DNA from: the human T2T-CHM13v2.0 reference genome, Homo sapiens
Assembly: GCF_009914755.1 (NCBI RefSeq)
Contig: NC_060928.1
Direction: 5' to 3' (one strand)
Length of the DNA stretch: 64,000 bases
This document shows, in pieces, positions 52,136 to 55,505 of the stretch (position 1 is its first letter; each line of letters opens with the position of its first letter). A program made the translations under genes and the position numbers. Under the pieces are notes generated by a model, which was given only the letters and a program-made list of their open reading frames with translations, was not told where the DNA came from and did not search any database.

Positions 52136-52650
52136 GCATATTTGAGACTCCTACTGTCATTTTTTTAGTTACAAAGGGTAGATGAGAAATAATATTTTTT
52201 TATGAGAGTGTAGTACAGGAAGAACCTAATTGCTATTTTCATGAGAAGATGAAGGGAGTGTGAAAGTGAGAAGTTAAGAATGAGAGTTTGTTTGCCAAAA
52301 GACAGAGAGTCCAGAGCATGCAGTGAAATGAATTTAGAGAGAGGAGATAGGGAGGACTTGGTGAAGAGAAAAGGAAGAACACACAGCTATGGGCAGGAAA
52401 ATACGAATATGGAAAAGATGGTAGTTAAAATTGGCAATGTGATTTTCTAAAGCATTATCACAGAGAGGTGGATTAGAATTCACTTAGGCTTTTCATAAAC
52501 AGCAGCAGCGCTCTGGATGGTCTGCAGTCCTAACATATATTATTACCTTCTTAATTGAAGGACACCAGCCAATTCCGAAAGGAAGATCCTGGTTTGGATT
52601 AACTATATGTTTTAAAGGTGCAGTGAGGTCCAAGGTGGAACTCAAGAGTT
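52136..52650. repeat. Left arm of a ~0.5 kb inverted repeat (partner ~54990-55505)
   Basis: For example agcagcagcgctctggatggtctgcagtccta (52501) versus taggactgcagaccatccagagcgctgctgct (55106). Confidence 0.95.
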
Positions 52651-53059
52651 CATTGTTACCTGCATTTATGCTCATAAAAAGTCAAGTAGAGGCATCTGTG
52701 ACTGCCCACTGTGAGATGCTAAAGTCTAAGTTTGCAAGGCTGGGGAAGAGGGTGGGAAGTCGGGGAGTGGAAGGAGGTGTGGAAGTCAGGATGTTCCATA
52801 AAGGCAGGGAATATATGGACAGCCCAGCATAGGTTTTCAAAGACCAATCATAGGTATTCAGAACCCAAGAGGATAGAGAGGTGGCAACAGAAATGATGGG
52901 ACATTGTTTACACATAGTGAGATTAAGCAATACTCATTTGAACTCCTTAAGTAAGCATATAATAGCAAGCAATAATAATCAAATGTCTCACTGTAGGAGA
53001 ACAGAGTTAAAAATAAGAATCTTATGGATGTGATAGTACTCTGTTTCTTGGTCCAGGTT

Positions 53060-54240
53060 CTGATTACATTAAAGTGCAAGTGTTTCTGTGAATCTGAGTT
53101 TTCATTTCTCTGGGATAAATGTTTAAGAGAAGAATTACTGTCTTATAAGTGCATGTGTTACTAAGAAACTATCAAATATTTTCCAGAATGTCTATACTGT
53201 AATACAACCCCACTATCAATATATGAGGTACCCAGTTACTCTACATGCTTGCCAGTGTTATGACATTACCATATGGCTTTTTAAAAATTTTCAGTTATTC
53301 TAATAGATACGTAACAATATGTCATTATGGTTCTAATTTGCAGTTCCCCAGTAGCTAATGATGTTGAATATCATATATTTACCTCTCGTATGTATTTTCT
53401 TTAAAAAAAAAAGCCTGTTGGTGTATTTTGTACGTTTTCTAATTATATTGTTTGTTTTATTGATGAGTTTTGAAAGTAATTTGTATATTCTAGATACAAG
53501 ACTTTCCTCAGTCATGTGGTTTGCCAGTATTTTATCCTAAGCTGTAGCTTACCTCTCTCTCTTTTTTTTTTTTTTTTTTTTTGAGACGGAGTTTCACCCT
53601 GTCACCCAGGCTGGAGTGCAATGGCACCAACTGGGGTCACTGCAACCTCTGCCTCCCGGGTTCAAAAGATTCTCCTGCCTCAGTTTCCTGAGTAGCTGGG
53701 ATCAGGGGCCTGCCACCATGCCCAGCTATTTTTGTAATTTTAGTAAAGACATGGTTTAACCATATTGGCCAGGCTGGTCTCAAACTCCTGACTTTAAGTG
53801 ATCTGCCCACCTCGGCCTCCCAAAGTGCTGGGATTACAGGCATAAGCCACCGCGCCTGGCCTGTAGCTTATCTCTTTATAGGATCTTGTGGAAATCAATA
53901 GATTTTAATTTTGATGAAGAACAACTTAACAATATCTTCCATAATAACTTTGCTTTTGGTTCTCATATCTTAACTTTTCTTAAAAATTATTTTCCTAAAA
54001 GTTTATAATTTTACATTTAAATCTAAAAATAATTTTGAATTAATTTGTGTATGTGGTCCTATGTTTATTTCTAAAAGTTTTGTAGCTTTAATTTTGCATT
54101 TAAATCCATGATCTATATTCAATTAACTTTTGTATACTGTATGACTTCAGTGTGAATCATAGGCTAAGGTTTTTTTCTTTTTTGGCCTATGAATGGCTAG
54201 TTAGTCCAGTACTCCAGCACCTATCCACATATTGTATTAA
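53060..54240 (-). mobile_element. Old L1M fragment interrupted by an Alu
   Basis: ttttcatttctctgggataaatg, gctaatgatgttgaatatc, gtatattctagatacaag and tttaattttgatgaag. Confidence 0.75.
53562..53861 (-). mobile_element. AluS (Sx-like)
   Basis: Full dimer. TSD tgtagcttacctctct / tgtagcttatctcttt. Confidence 0.95.
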
Positions 54241-54252
54241 AAATTTACTAAG

Positions 54253-54567
54253 GGCCGGGAGCGGTGGCTCACGCCTATAATCCCAGCACTTTGGGAGGCC
54301 AAGAGGGGTGGATCACGAGATCGGATCAAGACCATTCTGGCTAACACGGTGAAACCCCGTCTCCACTAAAAATACAAAAAAAAAAAAAAAAAAAAAAAAT
54401 TAGCCAGGCGTGGTAGCAGGGGCCTATAGTCCCAGCTACTAGGGAGGCTGAGGCAGGCGAATGGCATGAACCCAGGAGGCGGAGCTTGCAGTGAGCTGAG
54501 ATGGCGCCACTGCACTTCAGCCTGGGCGACAGAGCGAGACACCATCTCAAAAAAAAAAAAAAAAAAA
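54253..54567 (+). mobile_element. AluY with an expanded middle A-tract
   Basis: ggctaacacggtgaaaccccg and gagcttgcagtgag diagnostics; flanking tactaag repeats. Confidence 0.95.
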
Positions 54568-54989
54568 TACTAAGAAAATTAATACCCTTTAATTCTGTGT
54601 TCATGTTCTATATTATTTGAACTCATTAGGAAAAAATTATACATTTTTCAGACAATATCTCCAATATTGGCATTTGCTAATTGTATGTATTTTCATTTTG
54701 AATCTGCATATATAACTAGTTTGTTTATTTTTCGTTGTATTCTTTTCCTGTAGAAATATTTGTTGTCATACTAGTTTGAAGATCTTAGGAATATAAAAAA
54801 ATTAAAAAATCTATATTACAGGATATGCTTAAAAAGTCACTATCAAGTGAATAGGAAAAAGTAACCAATAATTTCAATATTGTAAAAAAAGTTGGATATA
54901 GATAATTACTAGAGCTCCACAATCTCAGAATCCATATTAGCTGAGGAACAGCAAAAAGAGGGTTCCAGAAATTTCAGGCTTCGTGTTCA

Positions 54990-55505
54990 ACTCTGAGATC
55001 CACCTGGAGTCTGGTAACATATCTAAAACACATAGTGAATCCAAATCAGGATCTTCCTTTCAGAATTGGCTGGTGTCCTTCAATTAAGACGGCCGTAAAA
55101 TATGCTAGGACTGCAGACCATCCAGAGCGCTGCTGCTATTCATGAAAAGCCTAAGTGAATTCTAATCCACCTGTCTGTGATAATGCTTTAGAAAATCACA
55201 TTGCCAATTACAACTACCGTCTTTTCCATATTCGTATTTTCCTGCCCATAGCTGTTTGTTCTTCCTTTTGTCTTAACCAAGCCCTCCCTATCTTCTCTCT
55301 CTAAATTCATTTCACCGCATGTTCTGGACTTTCTGTCCTTTGGTAAACAAACTCTCATTCCTAACTTCTCATTTTCACATTTCCTTCATCTTCTGTGACA
55401 ATGGCAATTAAGTTCTTCCTGTCTTGCACTCTCATGGGAAGGCTAATTTTCTCGTACACAGTTTTTAACTAAAAATTGAAAGCTGGAGTCTCACAGATAT
55501 GCTTG
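54990..55505. repeat. Right arm of the ~0.5 kb inverted repeat
   Basis: Reverse complement of 52136-52650. Confidence 0.95.

What the first reader, a model, noticed from the sequence alone, without database searches (positions are those of the whole stretch)
52136..55505. 0.5-kb inverted repeat with centre-peaked identity: ongoing gene conversion or recurrent micro-inversion
Arms 52136-52650 and ~54990-55505 flank a ~2.3 kb spacer. Manual alignment gives about 6 mismatches in 150 bp in the core (52383-52532, ~96%) and ~88% over 52202-52382, fading to barely alignable at both edges. A single duplication would diverge uniformly. A gradient implies an ancient inverted pair repeatedly homogenised by arm-to-arm exchange, as in palindromes, which can also flip the spacer. 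The arms are not Alu or L1. The strand-asymmetric tract at 52650-52950 could be the displaced continuation of the right-arm/L2 sequence, hinting at a past inversion (speculative). If transcribed, it would form a long hairpin.
Basis: partly seen in the sequence, partly recalled or inferred. Interest (0 to 1): 0.7.

Follow-up and report, generated by a model that had tools for sequence, protein, structure and literature searches.

The report
Old mirrored duplicate, evened in middle
A 520-base piece of junk DNA on human chromosome 4 sits beside its own mirror-image copy 2.3 kb away, and the middle of the two copies is far more alike than the ends, likely because they copied from each other long ago; this is an ordinary, known pattern with no sign that it still goes on.

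Summary
The inverted repeat is real: arms 52133-52650 and 54989-55505, 86% alike over 520 columns, only two copies found in the genome. Identity is uneven: edges 69% and 61%, body 91%, core 96%. The edges are true homology and uniform decay is rejected (0 of 1000 simulations); the extra peak inside the body is only borderline (p 0.03-0.15). The outer 215 bp of the right arm is the 5' part of a decayed LINE-2 copy (family name recalled) that runs on past the arm, so the right arm is the source and the left a truncated local inverted copy. Best reading: an old inverted duplication whose middle was later evened out by arm-to-arm gene conversion, the known 'conversion-degeneration' pattern. 'Ongoing' is not supported: the longest perfect match is 36 bp, the body differs by 0.10 substitutions per site, and the locus was not found in five inversion papers' searchable supplements (a weak negative). 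Whether the spacer was ever flipped could not be determined; no primate orthologues or haplotypes were available. Similar repeats occurred 4 times in 264 kb. Ordinary; low interest.

The parts
52133..52650 (-). Left arm: inverted copy of 54989-55505, cut off inside the LINE-2 piece at its outer end
   Evidence: LINE-2 profile covers only 52346-52216 here (E 0.054) and nothing further left
52133..52201 (-). Outer low-identity shoulder (69%, K2P 0.34)
   Evidence: 13 of 22 bases shared by both arms differ from the family majority
52202..52614 (-). High-identity body (38 differences in 413 columns, 91%, K2P 0.097), with 96% core at 52383-52532
52615..52650 (-). Inner low-identity shoulder (61%, 36 columns; weakly supported)
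52651..54988 (.). Spacer, 2338 bp; about 820 bp if the two Alus and the L1-like piece are removed
52651..52950 (.). Purine-rich unassigned tract; family and original neighbour not determined
53040..54225 (-). Old dispersed-repeat fragment (L1-like; name, strand and exact ends recalled or read by eye), interrupted by an Alu
   Evidence: 57-61% identical to copies in L015, L017, L021
53548..53867 (-). Alu with flanking direct repeat; 6.8-7.2% non-CpG from majority
   Evidence: masked in the annotation
54250..54582 (+). Alu, inverted relative to the first; 5.2% non-CpG from its 12 nearest copies, 8.3% from the overall majority
54989..55505 (+). Right arm: source copy; inner 300 bp unassigned, outer 215 bp LINE-2 5' part
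55290..56460 (+). Decayed LINE-2 5' fragment (family name from a recalled endonuclease motif) running across the right arm's outer edge
   Evidence: profile hit 55290-56345 E 1.9e-11; 56256-56456 E 4e-5 at the colinear position
48793..59875 (+). Predicted lncRNA LOC105377384; the whole repeat lies in its first intron
   Evidence: annotation supplied with the finding

Best explanation
The two arms are an inverted pair whose left arm is likely an old local copy of the right one, probably made by a replication template switch or staggered break, and whose middle was likely re-matched later by one or a few arm-to-arm gene conversions that appear to have lapsed. Shown: the pair, its two identity layers, and that the LINE-2-type fragment continues past the right arm but not past the left. 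Inferred: the copy was made after that element had decayed, roughly 0.3-0.5 substitutions per site ago (order of 90 My or more, calibration recalled); conversion needs homology on both sides and so spares the edges, giving a U-shaped divergence; the last long tract dates to about 0.10 (body) to 0.04 (core) substitutions per site, roughly 15-40 My (calibration recalled). Speculative: insertions that grew the spacer from about 0.8 to 2.3 kb helped end the exchange. No function is implied. Whether the spacer was inverted at the origin is open (about even odds).
For: Edges are homologous yet far more diverged than the body; uniform decay rejected, 0 of 1000. Family profile crosses the right arm's outer edge, E 1.9e-11, and stops inside the left arm. 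Independent copies of the family are 45-68% alike over the columns where the arms are 88% alike; in the outer edge 13 of 22 shared bases differ from the family majority, so the arms descend from one decayed copy. In the body differences are split evenly against the family majority (8 versus 6). The same edge-decay pattern is described for duplicated blocks in Drosophila (PMC2588116, passages). Longest perfect run 36 bp; PMC3790853 (passages) treats conversion as likely negligible below 88% identity, and the whole arm is at 86%.
Against: No orthologue or second haplotype could be examined, so conversion is inferred from one genome only. The gradient inside the body is borderline and no identical run is longer than expected by permutation (p 0.2-0.8). 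The inner shoulder is only 36 columns (p about 0.01). In the outer shoulder the right arm matches the family majority more often than the left (12 versus 5, p 0.14), which leans, not significantly, toward damage in the new copy only. No GC-bias signal. Body (92% over 354 bp) and core (96%) lie above the 88% level, so rare present-day conversion is not excluded.
Confidence: 0.6

Rival explanations
1. One younger inverted duplication (about 0.10 substitutions per site old) with no later exchange; the shoulders are imperfect, error-laden junction sequence in the new copy plus chance.
For: Body alone is compatible with uniform decay. Inverted duplications are the commonest non-MEI inversion class in 1,019 genomes, 277 of 733, median 284 bp (PMC12350158, section 18). 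Outer shoulder leans 12 versus 5 toward changes in the left copy.
Against: 22 differences in 71 columns is far beyond junction microhomology of 1-15 bp reported for this class (PMC12350158 passage); three other local inverted repeats seen here have sharp or nearly sharp edges by eye; the 12:5 lean is not significant.
Confidence: 0.2
2. Exchange is still active: present-day conversion between arms and a polymorphic or recurrent flip of the 2.3-kb spacer.
For: Short spacer, 96% core; small inversions are under-called, and the 612-region nanopore catalogue needed over 90% identity or an earlier call, so this locus was probably never genotyped there.
Against: Longest perfect run 36 bp. Validated repeat-mediated inversions break in high-identity stretches, for example 782 bp at 99.9% (PMC3961182 passages). 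No matching coordinates in the supplements searched, several of them incomplete.
Confidence: 0.08
3. Old duplication whose core stayed alike because both copies are under selection (regulatory element, or an RNA duplex in the lncRNA intron).
For: Lies in intron 1 of a predicted lncRNA; predicted arm duplex -743 kcal/mol with a nested Alu pair at -404; the core is not assigned to any repeat.
Against: No bias to G-U-compatible changes (13 versus 12); no Rfam family in the arms; the high-identity body includes decayed LINE-2 sequence only about 55% like its family majority; one arm alone folds no better than shuffles (z +1.4).
Confidence: 0.08
4. Two independent LINE-2 insertions in opposite orientation, later homogenised.
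For: Shoulder identity (61-69%) touches the top of the range between independent copies (45-68%).
Against: Shoulder bases shared by both arms are mostly non-family states (13 of 22); homology stops at both edges; the left element does not continue.
Confidence: 0.04

Closest known systems
Gene conversion-degeneration of duplicated blocks (Osada and Innan model, PMC2588116; passages read)
   Same: High identity in the middle, raised divergence at both edges, neighbouring duplicate
   Different: Non-coding human repeat remnant of 0.5 kb; no orthologous divergence profile available here as control
Small local inverted duplications (PMC12350158; section and passages read)
   Same: Size class (median 284 bp), inverted copy near its source, one copy embedded in its original context
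   Different: Those are present-day polymorphisms with 1-15 bp junction microhomology; this one is old and its junctions cannot be read
Inversions with staggered-break inverted duplications (PMC1885836; passages read)
   Same: Inverted duplicate of unique sequence of similar size (median 321 bp, about 88% identity) flanking a segment
   Different: Inversion of the spacer is not shown here
Repeat-mediated recurrent human inversions (InvFEST type; PMC3961182 passages, PMC13629690 abstract, methods section and table parts)
   Same: Inverted repeats flanking a spacer
   Different: Arms shorter than 1 kb, 86% identical, longest perfect run 36 bp; no inverted allele found
Conversion-maintained palindromes and inverted repeats (Y-chromosome palindromes, recalled; nematode inverted repeats PMC1803023 passages)
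   Same: Arm-to-arm homogenisation as mechanism
   Different: Maintained arms there are mostly 95-100% alike and carry genes; this pair looks like the lapsed state

Membership tests
Duplicate under past concerted evolution (conversion-degeneration) | Paralogous divergence raised at edges relative to middle | tested here: met
Duplicate under past concerted evolution (conversion-degeneration) | Arms cluster by species, orthologous divergence not U-shaped | not testable with these tools
   no relatives held for this genome
Duplicate under past concerted evolution (conversion-degeneration) | Longer-than-expected identical tracts | tested here: not met
   longest run 36 bp, permutation p 0.21-0.82; expected if tracts are old
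Recurrent repeat-mediated polymorphic inversion | Both orientations seen in people or apes | tested here: inconclusive
   no coordinates found in supplements searched; ape paper supplement unreadable; one key paper not held
Recurrent repeat-mediated polymorphic inversion | Long near-identical stretch between repeats (over 90% overall) | tested here: not met
   86% overall, 36 bp longest run; body 91-92%
Staggered-break inversion with inverted duplication | Inverted duplicate of formerly single sequence at both ends | tested here: met
Staggered-break inversion with inverted duplication | Spacer reversed relative to ancestor (element broken across a junction, or outgroup order) | tested here: inconclusive
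   no repeat found spanning either junction; composition only suggestive
LINE-2 fragment (outer arm and right flank) | Colinear match to a dispersed family carrying the endonuclease-region motif | tested here: met
   profile from 20 motif-anchored copies, E 1.9e-11; the family name and motif are recalled
LINE-2 fragment (outer arm and right flank) | Match to a curated consensus (Dfam/Repbase) or ORF2 Pfam domains | tested here: inconclusive
   no repeat library available; Pfam found no relevant domain in 6 frames read through stops
DNA transposon / MITE | Terminal inverted repeats and many copies | tested here: not met
   end-to-end inverted similarity p 0.055-0.085; 2 copies only
Structured RNA / microRNA hairpin | Rfam match or selected pairing | tested here: not met

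The most novel reading that the evidence does not exclude
A gene-free inverted pair about as old as placental mammals that has been kept alike by repeated arm-to-arm exchange in several lineages and still flips its 2.3-kb spacer at low frequency, missed by inversion catalogues because its arms are short and under 90% identical; its spacer insertions would date the decline of exchange.
Probability: 0.08. Interest if true: 0.45.

Novelty: new member of a known kind. Interest (0 to 1): 0.17.

Why it matters
Little by itself: it is a neutral fossil of local duplication and past conversion. If orthologues confirm it, it is a tidy small example for measuring how long gene-free inverted repeats keep exchanging sequence and whether spacer growth ends that; if an inverted allele exists, it would show that short, diverged repeats below catalogue thresholds still drive inversions.

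Tried and rejected
Extra homology beyond the arms: none. Central peak as a distinct tract: not significant after allowing for window choice; a post hoc Fisher p of 0.007 was discounted for that reason. Arm as a MITE: rejected. Coding remnants by Pfam: nothing relevant. Rfam: only Alu-related hits below gathering score, all in the spacer. Assigning the inner 300 bp of the arm, 52651-53040 or 54590-54988 to LINE-2 upstream sequence: 0 of 32 pairwise tests above z 2.1; 8 copies is a thin sample and none clearly reached that far. Extending the profile to the element's 3' part failed because other repeats swamped it; output was cut and not used. Tiles over 49600-57499 against 271 kb of Alu-masked DNA found no repeat across a junction (5 of 23 tiles had any hit). 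GC-biased conversion and G-U bias: no signal. Literature: 9 searches showed no paper on this repeat in their listings; the locus name occurs in 3 expression papers (one passage read). PMC6748972 passages added nothing specific.

Full report
Observation. Self-comparison of the window finds the pair at E 8e-167; formal alignment sets the arms at 52133-52650 and 54989-55505, 74 differences in 520 columns. A genome search with the left arm returns only these two places (a lower bound by the tool's own note), and a 24-base core probe with up to 3 mismatches finds only the two arms. Segment identities from the outer end are 69, 83, 90, 96, 88 and 61%, K2P 0.34, 0.18, 0.11, 0.04, 0.13, 0.54.

Is the gradient real? 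In two parts. The shoulders are homologous: anchored extension scores 37 at the outer edge (0 of 400 shuffles, 0 of 400 random window pieces as high) and 12 at the inner edge (5 and 3 of 400); nothing aligns further out. Simulated uniform decay to the same mean divergence never gave so uneven a profile (0 of 1000); merging clustered differences weakens this to p 0.017. Inside the body the peak is borderline (p 0.03-0.15 by window and distance tests, 0.55-0.83 by change-point). So two layers of age are supported; a smooth centre-peaked series is not established.

What the arms are. No repeat library was on hand, so I collected 25 genomic loci (22 after dropping 3 duplicates or paralogues) with short motifs recalled from the LINE-2 endonuclease region (reversed-pattern controls 0), showed that they form a family and built profiles. 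A profile of 20 copies matches 55290-56345 on the plus strand (E 1.9e-11), straight across the right arm's outer edge, and only 52346-52216 on the left (E 0.054), with nothing further left; a longer profile adds 56256-56456 at the colinear position. Independent copies are 45-68% alike where the arms are 88% alike (8 copies), and 13 of 22 bases shared in the outer shoulder differ from the family majority (31 columns scored). The right arm is therefore in its original setting and the left arm is a truncated copy made after the element had decayed. The family name rests on recall. The inner 300 bp of the arm and the tract 52651-52950 stayed unassigned.

Spacer. 2338 bp holding two inverted Alus and an old L1-like fragment (name recalled); without them about 820 bp. 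The Alus are 5-8% from majority at non-CpG sites among 102 copies, against about 3.4% per arm in 52261-52614 (24 non-CpG differences in 354, my count), so the last evening-out is probably younger than or close to these insertions; this comparison is crude. The left flank and the right end of the spacer are both AT-rich (26% and 23% GC), while 52651-52950 mirrors the skew of the right arm and its flank. That fits an inversion at the origin but does not show it; a second inverted repeat in this window has a donor embedded on both sides and needs no inversion.

Mechanism. Most likely (0.6): an old local inverted duplication, then one or a few conversions that re-matched the middle and spared the edges, as described for Drosophila duplicates (PMC2588116 passages), now lapsed. 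The pair, the two layers and the source arm are shown; conversion, its dates and its end are inferred from one genome. Main rival (0.2): a single younger duplication with damaged junctions; the outer shoulder leans that way (12 versus 5, p 0.14), but reported junction homologies for such events are 1-15 bp. Ongoing exchange (0.08) is disfavoured by a longest perfect run of 36 bp and no GC bias. Selection on an RNA duplex (0.08): the repeat lies in intron 1 of a predicted lncRNA and would pair strongly (-743 kcal/mol), but differences show no G-U bias (13 versus 12).

Known inversions. Using the lncRNA's published coordinates (PMC5881766 table passage; assembly taken as hg38) the repeat maps to about chr4:116.347-116.351 Mb. 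Prefix searches found no chr4 match in supplements of PMC13629690 (file 3 of 3; part 5 of 43 read), PMC10150506 (3 files), PMC12350169 (2 files, one cut, one more unreadable), PMC12350158 (3 files) and PMC2603318 (2 files, hg18 position recalled). The ape genome supplement was unreadable and one key paper was not held. This is a weak negative, since the 612-region set required over 90% identity or a prior call.

How common. In 264 kb (20 arbitrary 10-kb stretches plus the window) there were 4 non-Alu inverted repeats of at least 100 bp and 85% identity within 5 kb, this one included, and one more at 73%. The three others have sharp or nearly sharp edges by eye, so the shoulders are this locus's one distinguishing trait, and they match a described pattern.

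Verdict. Observation confirmed; interpretation partly supported (past homogenisation likely, ongoing activity unsupported, inversion undetermined). New member of a known kind, interest 0.17.

Noticed in passing
window 40679-40799 and 41897-42017: Second inverted repeat, 121 bp at 97%, sharp edges, 1.1-kb spacer; the right copy sits inside an L1-like fragment (name recalled) that seems to continue on both sides, so the left looks like a young templated inverted insertion.
   Followed up: partly
window 53548-53867 and 54250-54582: Inverted Alu pair only about 380 bp apart, 73% alike, nested inside the larger repeat; a transcript would form two stacked duplexes.
   Followed up: partly
window 7506-9752 and 16121-18454: Two 2.3-kb elements with terminal direct repeats in opposite orientation, 79% alike (LTR-type by anatomy).
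   Followed up: no
window 33761-34102 and 34686-35022: Inverted pair of old dispersed repeats, 70% alike, about 580 bp apart.
   Followed up: no
L015 8940-9226 and 9505-9791 (G000:C12:55100001-55110000): 287-bp inverted repeat at 98.6% with a 279-bp spacer and sharp edges; a better candidate for a recent or polymorphic event than the present finding.
   Followed up: partly
L024 6717-6851 and 7067-7206 (G000:C23:100100001-100110000): 140-bp inverted repeat at 86%, 216-bp spacer.
   Followed up: partly
window 52828-52868: Two copies of a 21-bp unit, 80% alike, inside the unassigned purine-rich tract.
   Followed up: no
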